DNA of 64,000 nt from an uncultured delta proteobacterium (GCA_963700055.1 CAVOWH010000021.1:408-64407); one strand, 5' to 3'. Counted from the stretch's first letter, positions 22,732-26,040 are shown. Program-made: numbers and translations. The notes: generated by a model from the sequence alone, not told the origin.

Positions 22732-22850
22732 TGACAGAAGAAGGCACCATATCAGATTTGTGCAAACATGAGGTTGAAAACCTGTATCATCCCCCCCACG
22801 GTAGTCCAGGTGGTCCAGTTAGGATTTGCAAGAGAAAACCCTATAAGTGC
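22732..22850 (+). repeat. Direct repeat R1 (~120 nt)
   Basis: tgacagaagaaggcaccatatcagatttgtgcaaacatgaggttga... matches R2 at 36 of the first 46 positions (hand count). Similarity is weaker through aggatttgcaagagaaaaccc versus agggtttgacaagaacagccc. Confidence 0.55.
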
Positions 22851-23175
22851 GGACCGCGAAGGAGAAAAGTATCGATGCACCTAGCGGGGGCGGATCATCC
22901 TGTAGGTGTGATGAAGTCTCGGTAATGGGGTTGGAGCGAAGGGGATGAGCCAGTTTGCAGGTGGAGGCAGCCAACCAGGTAATTGGGAGAAACTGTTTTA
23001 TTCCCTTCAACGACTGGCCGGCCCCTCCGATGTTTATCGGACCGGATTTATCTTCCTTGTTGACGGCAACTGATGGCAGTATTACTGGTCTAACAGAGGC
23101 TGAAGGGCAAAGTGGCGCTCCCACTTTTTGGGGCAGCCGGAGAGCAATCAAGCTCTCTGCCAGCCGTTGCCCCTG
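22847..23175 (+). ncRNA. Candidate structured RNA (possible truncated/ORF-less group II intron 5' part or other ribozyme-like element)
   Basis: It starts with GTGCG (22847-22851). There is no credible ORF. Nested helices can be read off: caccta 22878-83 / taggtg 22903-08; ggttgg 22929-34 / ccaacc 22971-76; aagtgg 23110-15 / ccactt 23121-26; ggggca 23130-35 / tgcccc 23168-73 enclosing gagagc 23140-45 / gctctc 23152-57. No domain V motif was found. Confidence 0.2.
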
Positions 23176-23573
23176 AATAGCGGATTCTTATCCATCGCCA
23201 TATTCTGGTCAGTGCTTTTTGAGGGGCCGTTCCCTTTCGCATTGCAGCCGTTCGGCCGACGCCTTCACTGCCGACACCGGTGTCGTGCTCGGCATCACGA
23301 TCTATCCGGGCGAGCCCCGAAATTCACACAGGCACCGAGCGAAATGCGATTACGTAGACTTTTCAAGAGTTTCTGAAGACAAAAATGCGAGATTGACGCC
23401 CTTTGAGGGGCGCTCATCTGCTCTTGGTGGTCCCGGTGGGTCCTTTTTCCTTAAACCGGCCCTGTGAAAGGCGCGTGTCCGGACCAAATTTAATGCAGGC
23501 CCGGCGGAACCGATCCGGTCGCACAACCCTCGGCCGGCGCTGGAAAAGCACTTCGTCCGACTAACAAAGAGGT

Positions 23574-24092
23574 ATGAACATGACGACCCTAAGCCTGCGA
23601 TTGAGCCTGACTGTCGCAATACTTTTTGGCACAGTACTGGCCGGTCCGCTTGCGCTCGCCGACGAAGGCGGACTCGATATGTTCGTCGGTCGCTGGGACC
23701 TGCGGGTGCAAATCTTGCAGCCCGAACGGAAGGCGCTGAACTACAGCGAAACCTACGAATGGGTGCTCGACCGCAAGTTCGTGCGCGGGCACACCGGGCG
23801 CAAACCGGATGGCACCGAGGACATTGTCTTCGGTACCTACGATGCTAAGATCGATGGCTATCCATTCTGGATCTTCTCGTCGTCGGGCAGCTACACCTAC
23901 CTTCCGCCGGGGAGCTTCGACGCACGTAGCCGCACGATGGACTGGAAGAGTCCCGGCGAGTGGGACATCTCCTACCAGAGCCGCTGCCTGTTTCCCGACG
24001 CGAGCACGCGGCGCTGCACCCTGATTATCAAGAATTGGAAGGGCAAGGTGCTGCTCGAGCAGGAATGGACAGCCGTCCGCCGCGACGACTGA
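23574..24092 (+). CDS. Secreted hypothetical protein (beta-rich; possibly DUF1579/lipocalin-like)
   Basis: AAGAGG lies upstream of the ATG. Signal peptide MNMTTLSLRLSLTVAILFGTVLAGPLALA-DE. GRWDL...YEWVLDRKFV resembles DUF1579-type proteins, but the match is weak. Confidence 0.55.
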   Translation: MNMTTLSLRLSLTVAILFGTVLAGPLALADEGGLDMFVGRWDLRVQILQPERKALNYSETYEWVLDRKFVRGHTGRKPDGTEDIVFGTYDAKIDGYPFWIFSSSGSYTYLPPGSFDARSRTMDWKSPGEWDISYQSRCLFPDASTRRCTLIIKNWKGKVLLEQEWTAVRRDD

Positions 24093-24132
24093 TCGTCGCA
24101 TCCGTCTCCGACCGCAGACAAGGGCATCCGCG

Positions 24133-25821
24133 ATGATCGAGGAGCTGACCCCGCAGGTGCTGATGAGCACCATGGTGCTGCTCATCGTGGTTTCGCCGTG
24201 TCTTTCGCTGGCGATCTCTGCGCTGTTGATGTGGCTGTATCGCCGTGCCGTTGCCCGGGCGATGGCTGAGACGGCAGACTACGAGACCCCAGCGGCAGCA
24301 ACCGAGTCGTCGGGGCAATTCCTTTCCGGAACCCCGGAATCCAGGATTCAGGCCGCTGACGCCCGTGTTGCCGATCTCTACCGCCGGGCAATGCGGGCGC
24401 CATGGTACAGCGCTGCAAGATACGCGGTCGCTGGTCTGACATTCGCCATCGTGCTGGCGGCGGCCGCGACGCAGGTCTATCCTTCGGGGCTCGGCTTACC
24501 GGGCTTCGCGATCGGGGTGTGGATCTACTCATGGCCTATCGTTCTTGCGCTGCCGCTGATCATGTCCGGACCATTGCGTGTCGCAGCGGTGGGGGTGCTT
24601 GCCTACTTCGCAGTGTTCGCACTGCTCGGGCTATGGGCGGGGACGGTCGCCAATCTCCCCGAGTTCCGCTTCGGCGCCGTCTTCGTTCCCGCCCGGTCGA
24701 CGGTGACACCGGAAGGCATGCTGCGGCTGTGGCTAGCGGTCAACGGAGGCCCCACCCTGCTGATGCTGCTGTGCTTCAATCGCCGGGTCCGCGCGGTCGC
24801 CCCGCTGGTGCTCGCGTTGGTGACGACCGCCCTAATCGGCACCGTCTCAGCGGTCTTGATGCTGTTCTCGCCGCGCGGTGTGGATGCCGCAGTGGGCATT
24901 TCCGAGTCGCTTGAGATTCACGTTATCTGGCTAGTTGGAGCGGTCTATGTCGTGTCGCTCGGCTTGTTCGGGGCAGTCGGCTGGCTGCTGGCGCGCAGCA
25001 TCGCGAAGGCATACCGGCGTGGCCGGCTGAGCGATCAGTCGCTGCGGCTCGACGCGCTGTGGCTGCTGTTCGCGAGCGCCTACGGTATGTGGCTGGTCCG
25101 TGGCGGGGTGGTGTGGATCGCAAGCGCCGCCACGGCGTTCGTCGCCTACCGGCTGGTCTGGGCAGCCGCCGCGAAATTCGCCGGCCGCGCCCGCGACGCG
25201 GGCGTCGGGTTGACTTTCTTGCGGGTTTTCTCGCTTGGGCGTCGGAGCGACGCGCTATTCGCGGCGATCGCCAGCTACTGGCGCCATCTCGGCAACGTGC
25301 AACTGATCACCGGCCCAGATCTGGCACACAGCACGGTGCAGCCATACCAGTTCCTAGATTTCCTGAGTGGCAGACTTTCGCAGCATTTCGTGCGGGACCG
25401 CGCCTCGCTCGAAAACCGCCTCGCGGAGCGCGACCTTGCCCCTGGCCCCGACGGGCGATTCCGGATCAACAATTTCTTCTGCTACGCGGACTCCTGGCAG
25501 GCCGTGCTGCCGGGGCTCGTCGGTGATCGGAACATCGTCTTGATGGATCTGCGAAGCTTCAGTGCCGCCAATGCCGGCTGCATCCACGAACTCCGCTTTC
25601 TGGTGCAGAAAGTGCCGCTCGACCGGTGCGTGCTGGTCATTGACGAAACGACCGACTCGCATTTCCTCGAACGAACGCTGCAGGAAGCCGCTGCGCGACT
25701 GCCGGCCGGCTCTCTGAACGACGGACGGCTTGCGCTGGAGCCAGCGCTGCACCGCCTCGGCGCCGGACGCAAGTCGGAGCACGGCCTGATGCGCCGGCTC
25801 TGCGATGCTGCGGAGCTGTAA
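24133..25821 (+). CDS. Polytopic membrane protein with unassigned C-terminal cytosolic alpha/beta domain
   Basis: 562-aa ORF. About 9 hydrophobic segments fall in the first ~340 aa. The C-terminal ~210 aa has an alternating strand/helix pattern (LTFLRVFSLGRRSD, VQLITGPD, IVLMDLRSFSAANAGCIHEL, CVLVIDETTD). I recognise no motif and see no P-loop. Confidence 0.6.
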   Translation: MIEELTPQVLMSTMVLLIVVSPCLSLAISALLMWLYRRAVARAMAETADYETPAAATESSGQFLSGTPESRIQAADARVADLYRRAMRAPWYSAARYAVAGLTFAIVLAAAATQVYPSGLGLPGFAIGVWIYSWPIVLALPLIMSGPLRVAAVGVLAYFAVFALLGLWAGTVANLPEFRFGAVFVPARSTVTPEGMLRLWLAVNGGPTLLMLLCFNRRVRAVAPLVLALVTTALIGTVSAVLMLFSPRGVDAAVGISESLEIHVIWLVGAVYVVSLGLFGAVGWLLARSIAKAYRRGRLSDQSLRLDALWLLFASAYGMWLVRGGVVWIASAATAFVAYRLVWAAAAKFAGRARDAGVGLTFLRVFSLGRRSDALFAAIASYWRHLGNVQLITGPDLAHSTVQPYQFLDFLSGRLSQHFVRDRASLENRLAERDLAPGPDGRFRINNFFCYADSWQAVLPGLVGDRNIVLMDLRSFSAANAGCIHELRFLVQKVPLDRCVLVIDETTDSHFLERTLQEAAARLPAGSLNDGRLALEPALHRLGAGRKSEHGLMRRLCDAAEL

Positions 25822-25920
25822 CTTTGCCGGGTCACCCCCACGGTCCGCTGCGCGGCGATCCGCTGAACCGGCGCGCTTGAAATACCACAGCAGAATCAGA
25901 CTCGATGAAATCCACGATAT

Positions 25921-26040
25921 TGACAGCGAAGGGCACCATATCAGATTTTTAAAAACGTGAGGTAGACGGCTTCTATCCCTGGCAAAAAGGGCTTACCGCT
26001 TCTGTCAGGGTTTGACAAGAACAGCCCGTCCGAGATAAGC
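25921..26040 (+). repeat. Direct repeat R2 (~120 nt)
   Basis: tgacagcgaagggcaccatatcagatttttaaaaacgtgaggtaga...; the partner of R1. It contains an internal inverted match: tgacagcgaag / cttctgtca. Confidence 0.55.

What the first reader, a model, noticed from the sequence alone, without database searches (positions are those of the whole stretch)
22732..26040. Diverged ~120-nt direct repeats bracket a 3.2-kb module (structured RNA + two genes)
R1 (22732-22850) and R2 (25921-26040) share a core, tgacag..a.ggcaccatatcagattt....aaac.tgaggt.ga, with 36 of the first 46 positions identical by hand alignment. A second similar patch is aggatttgcaagagaaaaccc versus agggtttgacaagaacagccc. They are in direct orientation and enclose the GTGCG-initiated structured region, the secreted 172-aa protein and the 562-aa membrane protein. 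In R1 the similarity ends at ...ataa followed by GTGCGG. In R2 the equivalent point reads ...ataagcataag. That is what one would expect if an element had inserted into one copy of a repeated target. Direct repeats of this size could be cassette boundaries, duplicated target or promoter regions, or ends of an unrecognised mobile unit.
Basis: seen in the sequence. Interest (0 to 1): 0.55.

Follow-up and report, generated by a model that had tools for sequence, protein, structure and literature searches.

The report
Recombinase-linked repeats punctuating a gene array
The two repeats are real, but they are neighbouring copies of an apparently undescribed ~270-base modular element that separates genes in same-direction arrays in sediment bacteria and, in its complete form, carries a small Xer-like recombinase gene. 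The 3.2-kb "module" is therefore most likely one unit of an integron-like gene array, not a mobile unit led by a structured RNA.

Summary
R1 and R2 are homologous: they share an exact 17-mer, GGCACCATATCAGATTT, and are about 75% identical around it. They are not a bracketing pair. The window holds five co-oriented copies or fragments of one modular element (blocks U-A-B-C-D-E, about 270 nt without U) between 17.9 and 29.3 kb. The genes between them range from 37 to 65% GC. The same element occurs in Desulfobacterales MAGs and freshwater-sediment metagenomes. There I found 51 hits in 22 sources, never on both strands of one source, with block E normally lying upstream of a co-oriented gene. Complete versions carry a 256-278 aa Xer-like tyrosine recombinase gene, antisense, between B and D. 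Block C in the short copies is the scar left by its deletion. The blocks reassort between copies, and four independent junctions fall at the 3' end of the 17-mer, which points to the B core as a crossover site. The "GTGCGG" region is not an intron 5' end. It is an internal fragment of a group II intron, and an intact relative of that intron sits inside another copy of the element. The 172/562-aa genes form a discrete cargo unit (23041-25830) that is found elsewhere without the element. No recombination was observed, so the mechanism is inferred.

The parts
17967..18105 (+). Element copy 0: block E plus an extension ('E-ext'). It is followed directly by an IS91-family transposase C-terminal remnant.
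   Evidence: nhmmer hmm 218-270, E = 2.5e-6. blastn to the E-ext of L013 and L005, 71-72% over about 128 nt. Sequence.
22560..22691 (+). Block U of copy R1, an optional 5' extension. Its left edge (CGATGAATAGG) coincides with the truncation point of the IS91-type transposase ORF and with the fall in GC.
   Evidence: Alignment with L007, L016, L017 and L003A, whose left flanks are all unrelated to each other. Y2_Tnp profile positions 1-78/183 end at about 22553. GC falls from 0.56-0.60 to 0.38-0.41.
22692..22829 (+). R1: blocks A, B, C (subtype ii) and the first bases of D (GGATTTGC). It is cut there and fused to foreign DNA.
   Evidence: nhmmer hmm 15-161, E = 9.8e-18. Alignments.
22743..22759 (+). 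B-core 17-mer of R1, GGCACCATATCAGATTT, the putative crossover (att) site.
   Evidence: Exact match. Invariant in all 12 aligned full copies, though those loci were retrieved by searching for this 17-mer. Breakpoints cluster at its 3' end.
22830..23015 (+). Internal fragment of a group II intron. It contains the 'GTGCGG' that was taken for an intron 5' end.
   Evidence: 84.4% identity over 186 nt to L013 1183-1368. That stretch lies inside the 643-nt intron L013 834-1476, which is defined by Rfam RF01999 and RF00029. No intron domain V/VI in the window.
23041..25830 (+). Cargo unit: a leader plus a 172-aa gene (23574-24092, predicted secreted) and a 562-aa gene (24133-25821, predicted membrane protein). 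Neither has a Pfam or NCBIfam family.
   Evidence: L033 shares 23041-23338 and 23533-25830 at 90-92% nt identity and has unrelated flanks with no element. The gene pair is conserved in Azoarcus and other contigs. No families found.
25871..26140 (+). R2: a complete element with blocks A, B, C (subtype i), D and E. The 17-mer is at 25932-25948.
   Evidence: nhmmer hmm 5-274, E = 1.5e-71 (R2 is in the model). Blocks B to E1 are 91-100% identical to L005.
26245..26709 (+). PNPOx/Nim-like gene (154 aa, 37% GC), the gene served by R2.
   Evidence: Pfam PF01243 and PF12900. NimABCDEF model 105.8 bits, below its cutoff of 260. GC.
26726..26764 (-). Remnant of the first 13 codons of the recombinase gene (MKVFYDADICMDY).
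   Evidence: Translation compared with L021 MKVAYAAKIWMDY and P0012 MKVSKAAIIWIDY. blastn of 26710-26911 to the int 5' end plus D-E of L021 and L023.
26769..26912 (+). R3: blocks C (3' part, the int ribosome-binding-site scar), D and E. This is a 5'-truncated copy.
   Evidence: nhmmer hmm 126-268, E = 6.5e-31. Sequence.
29071..29250 (+). Copy 5: block U plus block A, then a short spacer and a degenerate E-like stretch, upstream of the epimerase gene at 29477.
   Evidence: nhmmer hmm 8-61. blastn to the U/A regions of L017, L016, L007 and L003. Sequence.
18110..18425 (+). IS91/ISCR-family transposase C-terminal remnant. It lies between copy 0 and the WD40 gene.
   Evidence: Translation ...NWVRLIQEIYEVDPLVCPRSEGEMRVIVFIEDQEVIRKILTHLGLW. 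Weak hit to the ISCR clade Ia model at positions 444-487/509.
22322..22559 (+). IS91-family transposase internal remnant, cut off by block U.
   Evidence: Pfam Y2_Tnp positions 1-78/183. NCBIfam IS91 transposase positions 135-225/356.

Best explanation
R1 and R2 are two consecutive junction elements of an integron-like gene array that was built by, or left behind by, a small Xer-like tyrosine recombinase.

The full unit reads A - B - terminator hairpin - recombinase gene (antisense) - D - E, followed by one to three co-oriented genes. Most copies, including all those in this window, have lost the recombinase gene. What remains is block C as a deletion scar, giving a roughly 270-nt element.

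The B core (GGCACCATATCAGATTT nnn AAAACGTGAGGT) is inferred to be the crossover site. Recombination between B cores would insert circular units, tandem them and reassort them. That process would produce co-oriented arrays in which each B-to-B interval is one cassette. Block D holds the recombinase promoter and possibly a divergent outward one. Block E acts as a shared leader in front of the cargo gene.

On this reading the 3189-nt R1-R2 interval is one such unit. Its D/E part has been replaced by a decayed group II intron fragment and a captured two-gene operon. The window's array has no intact recombinase gene, so it is either fossil or mobilisable only in trans.

Shown here: the repeat family, its modular anatomy, the co-orientation, the physical link to the recombinase, the deletion scars, the mosaicism, the clustered breakpoints and the discreteness of the cargo. 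Inferred: that the recombinase acts on the B core, and that arrays grow by site-specific insertion.
For: Family and arrays. The core pattern retrieved copies in 3 Desulfobacterales MAG contigs and 15 sediment metagenome contigs (the other two hits are false positives, see Tried and rejected). A profile search gives 51 hits in 22 sources, and no source has hits on both strands. The sum of (n-1) over multi-hit sources is 29. The window has 5 copies within 12 kb and none in the other 52 kb. In L021, L023 and L024, wherever gene calls exist, block E is followed by a co-oriented gene. A crude ORF scan of all loci points the same way.

Recombinase link. In L021 and L023 the int gene lies antisense between A-B and D-E, with its ribosome-binding site and ATG abutting block D. 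L007, L016, L020 and L024 show A-B next to the int 3' end. A 77%-identical int in L034 still has a diverged B core plus hairpin at its 3' end and block D at its 5' end. The window's R3 retains 13 int codons.

Site-specific signature. A, C, D and E variants reassort between copies. For example, R2 vs L005 is 47% identical in A, 100% in B, 97% in C, 91% in D, 96% in E1 and 45% in E2. L013 combines an L003B-type A (90%) with an L003A-type D (92%). Four independent junctions fall at the end of the 17-mer: the L003 partial copy, L016 at 3878, the B' duplicate in L023 flanking two inserted antisense genes, and the edge of L021/L023 homology.

Cargo heterogeneity. GC is 37% for PNPOx, 45% for OsmC, 57% for SDR and 64-65% for WD40 and the 562-aa gene. 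The 172/562 unit recurs with other flanks.

Not an assembly artefact. Contigs from two independent sequencing runs are colinear with 22512-26893.

Not an RNA. RNAalifold gives -5 kcal/mol with no covariation, and Rfam finds nothing.
Against: No excision product, empty site or alternative junction was observed, so recombination is inferred from anatomy only.

The window contains no intact recombinase gene.

The dyad symmetry of the B core is weak, 9 of 16 positions.

Close int homologues at 78% identity in L022 and L025 have no element around them.

All related loci were retrieved through the 17-mer, so the invariance of B is partly ascertainment.

The element has its own sharp left and right ends that do not depend on the neighbouring genes. 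That is equally what a MITE-like insert would show.

Some array genes are large (1028-aa WD40, 809-aa channel protein, 1672-aa ORF), unlike typical integron cassettes.
Confidence: 0.5

Rival explanations
1. The elements are MITE-like, non-autonomous derivatives of a roughly 1.15-kb IS-like element whose 'transposase' is the tyrosine recombinase. The elements, not the genes, are the mobile units. They insert into intergenic regions and are retained where their outward promoter or leader benefits the downstream gene.
For: The short copies are internal-deletion derivatives of the int-bearing unit, with at least two independent deletion types: C subtypes i/iii keep the int ribosome-binding site and subtype ii does not. 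The element has defined ends that do not depend on the flanking genes. The a2-type A block starts at TTCAGGTTTTCACAC in both L003B and L013, where the upstream genes differ, and the U block starts at CGATTAATAGAA. The 7-bp terminal inverted motif ATATCAC...GTGATAT is present. The int family is very abundant and multi-copy, with 6640 homologues.
Against: Co-orientation is complete and the elements cluster in arrays. Random insertion does not predict that. The blocks reassort at fixed points, and cargo genes are flanked by duplicated B-right halves. The terminal motifs do not covary and vary independently. No target-site duplications were noticed, but this was not tested systematically.
Confidence: 0.2
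2. The element is a shared promoter/5'-leader regulatory module, carrying binding sites for a common regulator. It was copied in front of many genes by duplication and homologous recombination, and the recombinase gene is an occasional passenger.
For: Block E lies 13-400 nt upstream of a co-oriented start codon. Block D contains TTGACA-N17/18-TAAGAT-like motifs. The ATATCAC-type motifs recur in U, A, B and E. Mosaicism could result from gene conversion at conserved blocks.
Against: The sense-strand -10 hexamer is poor in most copies, and the consensus scan finds no promoter in R2. Block D fits better as the antisense int promoter (TTGCAG-17-TATTCT on the other strand). Identity of 91-100% across about 200 nt between different metagenomic genomes (R2 vs L005) argues for recent mobility. 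Int remnants and int scars inside copies show that the copies descend from int-bearing units, not the reverse.
Confidence: 0.12
3. The array is a classical integron or CALIN, and the repeats are attC sites, or lie at cassette 5' ends next to attC sites.
For: The layout resembles an integron, with a leftward recombinase, then a site, then rightward cassettes. A group II intron targets the element, as IIC-attC introns target attC. Some a1-type A blocks are preceded by imperfect hairpins with attC-like R''/L''/L'/R' spacing. In L014 at 4328 this reads TGCTAAC-6-CTCCAGCGGAC...GCCGCTGAG-6-GTTGAGA; similar structures occur in L012, L018 and L021.
Against: The recombinase scores 62 bits against the integron-integrase model, whose cutoff is 265. 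Only its N-terminal half aligns, and the protein is 256-278 aa rather than about 320 aa. The element has no conserved hairpin. Most copies are preceded by plain terminators or nothing, not attC-like hairpins. Junction elements repeat the platform itself (A-B...D-E), which integron attC sites do not.
Confidence: 0.04
4. One reading: a 3.2-kb mobile unit led by a GTGCG-initiated structured RNA inserted into one copy of a repeated target, so that R1 and R2 are its duplicated target or its ends.
For: R1 is indeed truncated and joined to foreign DNA. The repeats are direct.
Against: The GTGCGG lies 17 nt inside a fragment homologous to the middle of an intron, and L013 reads GTGAGG at that position. 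The window has no intron 5' or 3' end. R2 is a complete element and not the other half of R1. R1 and R2 belong to different subtypes. The cargo unit (23041-25830) recurs without the repeats. Three further copies lie outside the pair.
Confidence: 0.03

Closest known systems
Integrons and CALINs (IntI, attI, attC cassette arrays)
   Same: A tyrosine recombinase gene reads away from a co-oriented array of unrelated, compositionally heterogeneous genes separated by repeated sites. Arrays without a recombinase gene exist, as CALINs do. A group II intron inserts in the repeated site.
   Different: The recombinase is Xer-like and lacks the IntI-specific features, scoring 62 bits against a cutoff of 265. 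The repeated site is about 270 nt, conserved in primary sequence, and has no hairpin or covariation. Each junction repeats the whole platform (A-B and D-E), including the int promoter region. The int gene sits inside an element in mid-array. Cargo can also be inserted antisense next to the int 3' end.
Tandem accretion of integrative elements and CIMEs (e.g. ICESt1/CIME in streptococci; IME reviews such as PMC5704250, recalled from general knowledge)
   Same: Site-specific integration next to an already integrated copy gives tandem arrays separated by directly repeated att regions. Loss of int leaves cis-mobilisable, att-flanked cargo.
   Different: The units here are tiny, with 1-3 genes and no transfer or mobilisation genes. 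There are many per array. No tRNA or other conserved host target was seen.
Xer/dif-dependent modules (pdif modules of Acinetobacter plasmids, IMEXs)
   Same: A Xer-family recombinase is involved. The closest solved structures are XerC-like 4a8e, XerA 5hxy and XerD 1a0p. Short genes are flanked by repeated recombinase sites.
   Different: pdif sites are 28 bp and alternate in orientation. They use the host XerC/D and carry no recombinase gene. Here the sites are direct, embedded in long conserved arms, with a dedicated recombinase. These elements were not found on plasmids.
MITEs with outward promoters (e.g. Correia elements) and the RAYT/REPIN relationship
   Same: Short non-autonomous derivatives vastly outnumber the enzyme-bearing parent. 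They are intergenic and may provide a promoter.
   Different: The enzyme is a tyrosine recombinase, not a DDE or HUH enzyme. The copies are strictly co-oriented and clustered, and the blocks reassort at fixed points.
Group II introns (bacterial, ORF-less; IIC-attC-type site preference)
   Same: L013 834-1476 matches Rfam RF01999 and RF00029. It is inserted precisely at GACAGCGAA|GGGCACC in the element. The window carries a 186-nt homologous fragment.
   Different: The window fragment has no 5' GUGYG end, no domain V/VI and no reverse-transcriptase ORF. It is debris, not a functional intron or a structured regulatory RNA.

Membership tests
Integron | IntI-type integrase, reaching the integron-integrase model threshold and carrying the IntI-specific additional domain | tested here: not met
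   P0012 (278 aa) scores 61.9 bits on TIGR02249 (cutoff 265) and 38.8 bits on NF011946 (cutoff 435). It aligns only to model positions 12-179/315. The best family is XerA_Arch at 127 bits, below its cutoff of 220.
Integron | attC sites: 57-141 bp imperfect palindromes (R''-L''...L'-R') after each cassette | tested here: inconclusive
   The element itself has no conserved hairpin: RNAalifold gives -5 kcal/mol and there are no compensatory pairs. attC-like hairpins precede only the a1-type copies in L012, L014, L018 and L021. Most copies follow plain terminators. No attC covariance model was available.
Integron | Co-oriented array of unrelated cassettes next to a divergently transcribed recombinase gene | tested here: met
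   Arrays in L021 and L023 and in the window. The int gene is antisense to the cassettes.
Group II intron (for the GTGCGG region) | 5' GUGYG at the true intron start, plus domains V/VI at the 3' end | tested here: not met
   No RF00029 or D1-D4 hit in the window at the gathering threshold, nor at E <= 10 in 22300-26400. The GTGCGG aligns to an internal GTGAGG of the L013 intron.
Group II intron (for the GTGCGG region) | Sequence homology to a bona fide intron | tested here: met
   Window 22830-23015 vs L013 1183-1368: 84.4% identity, E = 3e-54. The L013 intron is validated by RF01999 (114 bits) and RF00029 (61 bits).
Structured ncRNA / riboswitch | A conserved secondary structure with covariation, or a match to an Rfam family | tested here: not met
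   Rfam finds nothing on the window or on 18 related loci apart from the L013 intron. The alifold consensus is negligible.
MITE / IS-derived element | Terminal inverted repeats and target-site duplications, with insertion independent of gene orientation | tested here: inconclusive
   The 7-bp motif ATATCAC...GTGATAT is present but varies independently at the two ends. Target-site duplications were not examined systematically. Orientation is never mixed, which argues against membership.
Xer/dif site | A site of about 28 bp with two inverted 11-bp arms around a 6-8 bp central region | tested here: inconclusive
   The B core CACCATATCAGATTTCTGAAAACGTG shows 9/16 dyad positions around the TT centre. 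The observed breakpoints fall in the putative central region. No binding data exist.
Tandem accretion of integrative elements | Directly repeated att regions between units, with a functional or decayed int gene adjacent to att | tested here: met
   Int gene or int remnants lie inside elements. B-right halves are duplicated around inserted genes in L023 and L016.
Tandem accretion of integrative elements | Demonstrated excision or integration (circular form, empty attB) | not testable with these tools
   Needs raw reads, PCR or an assay. Only assembled contigs were available. Two independent assemblies show the same arrangement.

The most novel reading that the evidence does not exclude
Desulfobacterota-type sediment bacteria carry a second, independently evolved integron-like gene-capture system. 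In it a dedicated small Xer-like recombinase acts on a dif-like core (CACCATATCA-GATTTn-nnAAAACGTG) embedded in a roughly 270-nt platform. Each captured unit brings or acquires its own platform copy (att plus promoter plus leader). The arrays are therefore self-expressing cassette stores that can also take up host-foreign operons such as the beta/gammaproteobacterial-type 172/562-aa pair.
Probability: 0.35. Interest if true: 0.8.

Novelty: new variant of a known kind. Interest (0 to 1): 0.6.

Why it matters
Integrons are the only well-characterised system that stockpiles single-gene cassettes by site-specific recombination, and they depend on one integrase clade and on folded attC sites. A sequence-defined, Xer-like, platform-repeating array would show that cassette capture evolved more than once, using a different enzyme and a different site logic.

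It would also explain a class of abundant 'XerD-like integrase' genes in sediment metagenomes (6640 homologues). It would give a search handle, namely the 17-mer and the element profile, for finding gene-flux hot spots in uncultivated sulfate-reducer lineages.

Even on the most conservative reading, the work identifies an abundant repeat family that is absent from Rfam and from the plasmid and phage collections and was not found in five literature searches. That family breaks short-read assemblies: the Logan contigs of this genome end close to the repeats.

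Tried and rejected
Rfam, at the gathering threshold and at E <= 10, on the window and on 22 related loci gave nothing for the element.

A structured RNA was rejected by RNAalifold, which found no covariation. The GTTGGAT...ATCCGAC hairpin in block E is not maintained: the 3' side is conserved and the 5' side drifts without compensation.

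A sigma-54 promoter in the B core was rejected by hand, because the GG/GC spacing does not fit. A sense sigma-70 promoter in block D was not picked up by the consensus scan in the window copies.

No tRNA or tmRNA target was found.

The KSB1 hits (L002, L008) turned out to be the start of a cobalamin riboswitch on the opposite strand and are false positives.

Searches of plasmid and viral collections for the element and for the recombinase gave no match.

Five literature searches found no description of such arrays.

I considered that R1 and R3 might be two halves of one copy split by an insertion. This was rejected because they overlap in block C/D and are of different subtypes.

I considered the low-GC/high-GC junctions as assembly chimeras. 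This was rejected by contigs from two independent runs.

I first took the host for a betaproteobacterium on the basis of the 562-aa protein's relatives. This was corrected by PutA, whose named best hits are 'Desulfoba...' MAGs.

Int homologues at 78% identity in L022 and L025 carry no element, so the association holds for a sub-clade only.

The P0006 context could not be read because no DNA was available.

Full report
1. THE OBSERVATION

The window is about 65% GC, but R1 and R2 lie in patches of about 40% GC. The 17-mer GGCACCATATCAGATTT occurs exactly twice, at 22743 and 25932, both on the + strand. None of 100 shuffles gave two matches, even with 3 mismatches allowed. The repeat finder reports 60 nt at 75% identity with 3189-nt spacing, and MAFFT gives 76% mean column identity. 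The core repeat is therefore real and well above chance.

From 22830 onward the R1 side (aagagaaaaccctataaGTGCGGaccgcgaagg...) aligns at 84% over 186 nt (E = 3e-54) to the interior of a group II intron in metagenome contig L013.

2. THE REPEATS BELONG TO A LARGE FAMILY OF LONGER ELEMENTS

I scanned public genomes and metagenomes for GGCACCATATCAGATTTNNNNAAAC. This found Desulfobacterales MAG contigs L001, L003 and L004, and 15 freshwater or wetland sediment contigs. Two further hits, L002 and L008 (candidate division KSB1), are the start of a cobalamin riboswitch on the other strand and are false positives.

In the true hits the R core is the 5' part of a longer conserved noncoding element. 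I divide it into blocks:
- U: optional, about 130-150 nt. Its left edge reads CGATTAATAGAA.
- A: about 55 nt, ..ATATCAC......GATACTGACAGCGAAG.
- B: GGCACCATATCAGATTT nnn AAAACGTGAGGTAGAC.
- C: variable, with three subtypes.
- D: GGrTTTGACA-N17-GTAAGAATAGGATA..CGGAaCTAATCTGnAAT.
- E: TTGTTGGAT-N12-CCATCCGACaAATCACCgAAAC..cAAAtCTGTGATAT.

R2 (25871-26140) is a complete A-E copy. R1 is U + A + B + C and stops at GGATTTGC (22829).

A profile built from 12 full copies finds three further pieces in the window: E at 17967-18019, D-E at 26769-26912, and U-A at about 29071-29250. All are on the + strand, and there are none in the remaining 52 kb. No source has hits on both strands. The sum of (n-1) over the 14 multi-hit sources is 29. 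Some hits are halves of one interrupted copy, so the number of independent observations is somewhat smaller.

In L021, L023 and L024, wherever gene calls are available, block E is followed by a co-oriented gene. A crude ORF scan across all loci gives a start codon 13-400 nt downstream in most cases.

3. THE ELEMENT IS NOT AN RNA

Rfam finds nothing on the window or on the related loci, apart from one intron and unrelated genes. RNAalifold on the 12 copies gives a consensus of -5 kcal/mol with no compensatory change. The only visible hairpin, GTTGGAT...ATCCGAC, is conserved on its 3' side and drifts without compensation on its 5' side. Conservation is therefore in blocks of primary sequence, which suggests protein-binding DNA.

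4. THE LINK TO A RECOMBINASE

In L007, L016 and L020 the A-B part is followed by a GC-rich hairpin and then by the 3' end of a tyrosine-recombinase gene on the other strand. L010 shows A-B and the hairpin but no recombinase gene after them. The recombinase family is large, with 6640 homologues. Full length is 256-278 aa. Named members come from Desulfosarcina and 'Deltaproteobacteria' MAGs.

It is Xer-like. The best NCBIfam model is XerA_Arch at 127 bits, below that model's cutoff. The integron-integrase model gives 62 bits against a cutoff of 265, with only the N-terminal half aligned. The closest solved structures are XerC-like 4a8e, XerA 5hxy and XerD 1a0p.

On contigs that carry 96%-identical copies (L021, L023), the gene lies antisense inside an element. 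The order is A-B, hairpin, int, then block D immediately after the int ribosome-binding site and ATG, then E, then a co-oriented gene. An int that is only 77% identical (L034) still has a diverged B core plus hairpin at its 3' end and block D at its 5' end. Two 78%-identical homologues (L022, L025) have neither.

Block C of the short elements is what remains when int is deleted. Subtypes i and iii keep the int ribosome-binding site (GCTTACCTCCTTCA), and subtype ii keeps the hairpin side. The window's R3 is preceded by the first 13 int codons, MKVFYDADICMDY, to be compared with MKVAYAAKIWMDY in L021 and MKVSKAAIIWIDY in P0012. No other trace of the gene exists in the window.

5. EVIDENCE FOR SITE-SPECIFIC RECOMBINATION

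The blocks reassort between copies.
- R2 vs L005: 47% identical in A, 100% in B, 97% in C, 91% in D, 96% in E1 and 45% in E2.
- L013: an L003B-type A (90%) with an L003A-type D (92%).
- L019: an R2-type C (90%) with an L015/L017-type E1 (88-96%).

Fragment boundaries recur at four places: the A|B border, the 3' end of the 17-mer, the int start, and just after CCATCCGAC.

Four independent junctions lie at ...CAGATTT|:
- the partial copy in L003;
- the copy at L016 3878, which follows an antisense glyoxalase gene that replaced most of int;
- the diverged duplicate B' in L023, which together with a full B flanks two inserted antisense genes;
- the left edge of homology between the L021 and L023 int units.

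The region CACCATATCA-GATTTC-TGAAAACGTG has weak dyad symmetry (9/16), so these breakpoints would fall in a dif-like central region. This is suggestive and not proven.

6. WHAT LIES BETWEEN R1 AND R2

- 22830-23015 is an internal fragment of a group II intron. Its intact relative is a 643-nt ORF-less intron, L013 834-1476, matched by RF01999 at 114 bits and RF00029 at 61 bits. That intron is inserted exactly at GACAGCGAA|GGGCACC of another element copy. L001 keeps only the last ~45 nt of such an intron at the same site.
- 23041-25830 is a discrete cargo unit. L033 shares precisely this stretch at 90-92% nt identity and has unrelated flanks with no element.
- The pair of a 169-172-aa gene and a 562-582-aa gene is conserved in Azoarcus, Thiobacillaceae and gammaproteobacterial contigs. 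It has no Pfam or NCBIfam family.

The host of the window looks like a high-GC Desulfobacterota-type organism. The best named PutA hits are 'Desulfoba...' MAGs at about 72% identity. The array thus holds genes of very different composition: PNPOx/Nim-like 37% GC, OsmC 45%, SDR 57%, and WD40 and the 562-aa gene 64-65%.

Contigs from two independent sequencing runs are colinear with 22512-26893, so the mosaic is not an assembly artefact.

7. INTERPRETATION

The best-supported reading is an integron-like, or tandem-accretion, array. Units of the form B-right...(int)...D-E-gene(s)-A-B-left are joined at B cores by the Xer-like recombinase. Int is then lost from most units, and later debris accumulates: intron fragments, IS91 remnants and deletions. 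The R1-R2 interval is one such unit.

I put this at about 0.5, because no recombination product was observed and the window has no enzyme.

The main rival (about 0.2) is that the elements themselves are MITE-like mobile inserts derived from an int-bearing parent. The sharp element ends, which do not depend on the neighbouring genes, fit that model equally well. The strict co-orientation, the clustering and the B-flanked cargo fit it less well.

8. NOVELTY

The element is absent from Rfam, from PLSDB plasmids, from the phage and viral collections, and from the literature I could search.

In kind it is close to integrons/CALINs and to tandem accretion of integrative elements. It differs in four ways: the enzyme clade, the nature of the site (a long platform conserved in sequence and not in structure), the position of int inside a junction element, and the fact that every junction repeats the platform.

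I rate it a new variant of a known kind, with moderate-to-high interest, conditional on experimental or read-level proof of recombination.

Noticed in passing
window 18110-18425 and 22322-22559 (with the WD40 gene 18720-21806 between them): Two remnants of an IS91/ISCR-family transposase lie in permuted order. The C-terminal piece is upstream of the 1028-aa WD40 gene and the internal Y2_Tnp piece is downstream. Each remnant abuts an element block directly (E-ext on the left, U on the right), and both junctions carry CATCTG. This looks like an ISCR-type captured segment inserted between two element copies, or rearranged there.
   Followed up: partly
window 23574-25821; L029-L033: The pair of a 172-aa (predicted secreted) gene and a 562-aa (predicted multi-pass membrane) gene is a conserved two-gene operon with no Pfam or NCBIfam family. 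It is found in Azoarcus, Thiobacillaceae and gammaproteobacterial contigs in varying neighbourhoods. In L033 it is flanked on both sides by a TTAAAGACnTC motif, which hints at another kind of repeat-bounded context.
   Followed up: partly
L021 9936-10010; L023 (same position): The recombinase genes of the 96%-identity group have a run of 8 A after codon 20. This puts the conserved N-terminus (MKVAYAAKIWMDYHRSHSKK) out of frame with the rest. The 278-aa homologues read through in frame. This could be a sequencing error, a decayed start, or a slippery tract that controls int expression.
   Followed up: no
L013 834-1476; L001 about 6150-6197: A compact 643-nt ORF-less group II intron is inserted precisely at GACAGCGAA|GGGCACC of an element copy. 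L001 keeps only the last ~45 nt (domain VI) at the same site. This intron lineage appears to home to the A|B border of the element.
   Followed up: partly
L014 about 4270-4335, L012 about 3160-3225, L018 about 5700-5800 (minus strand), L021 about 10930-11030 (minus strand): Imperfect hairpins with attC-like box spacing and extrahelical bases lie immediately upstream of the a1-type A blocks (GGCGTTGAGAATATCACC). The GTTGAGA there could be an R' box. Some arrays may therefore overlap genuine integron cassette arrays.
   Followed up: partly
L002 3962-4153 and L008 about 9540: The 25-nt pattern match in candidate division KSB1 is the 5' end of a cobalamin riboswitch (RF00174, 126 bits) read on the opposite strand. 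It is unrelated to the element.
   Followed up: yes
window 26245-26709: The 37%-GC gene after R2 is PNPOx-fold and resembles 5-nitroimidazole reductases. It scores 105.8 bits on NimABCDEF and 88.6 bits on NimIJ, both below their cutoffs. It may be a nitroimidazole or nitro-compound reductase cassette.
   Followed up: no
window 17967-18105; L005 1618-1743; L013 1650-1778: An alternative 3' continuation of block E ('E-ext': ATTTCTGAGATTG...AATCTGCA..AATCGATACCT..GATCTGC) is shared by three copies in place of the usual GTGATAT end. It adds another module to the family.
   Followed up: no
L023 886-2668: Two adjacent, overlapping tyrosine-recombinase genes (312 and 292 aa) sit at the end of the L023 array, next to an A-only fragment. 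IS21 copies interrupt both the L021 and L023 arrays.
   Followed up: no
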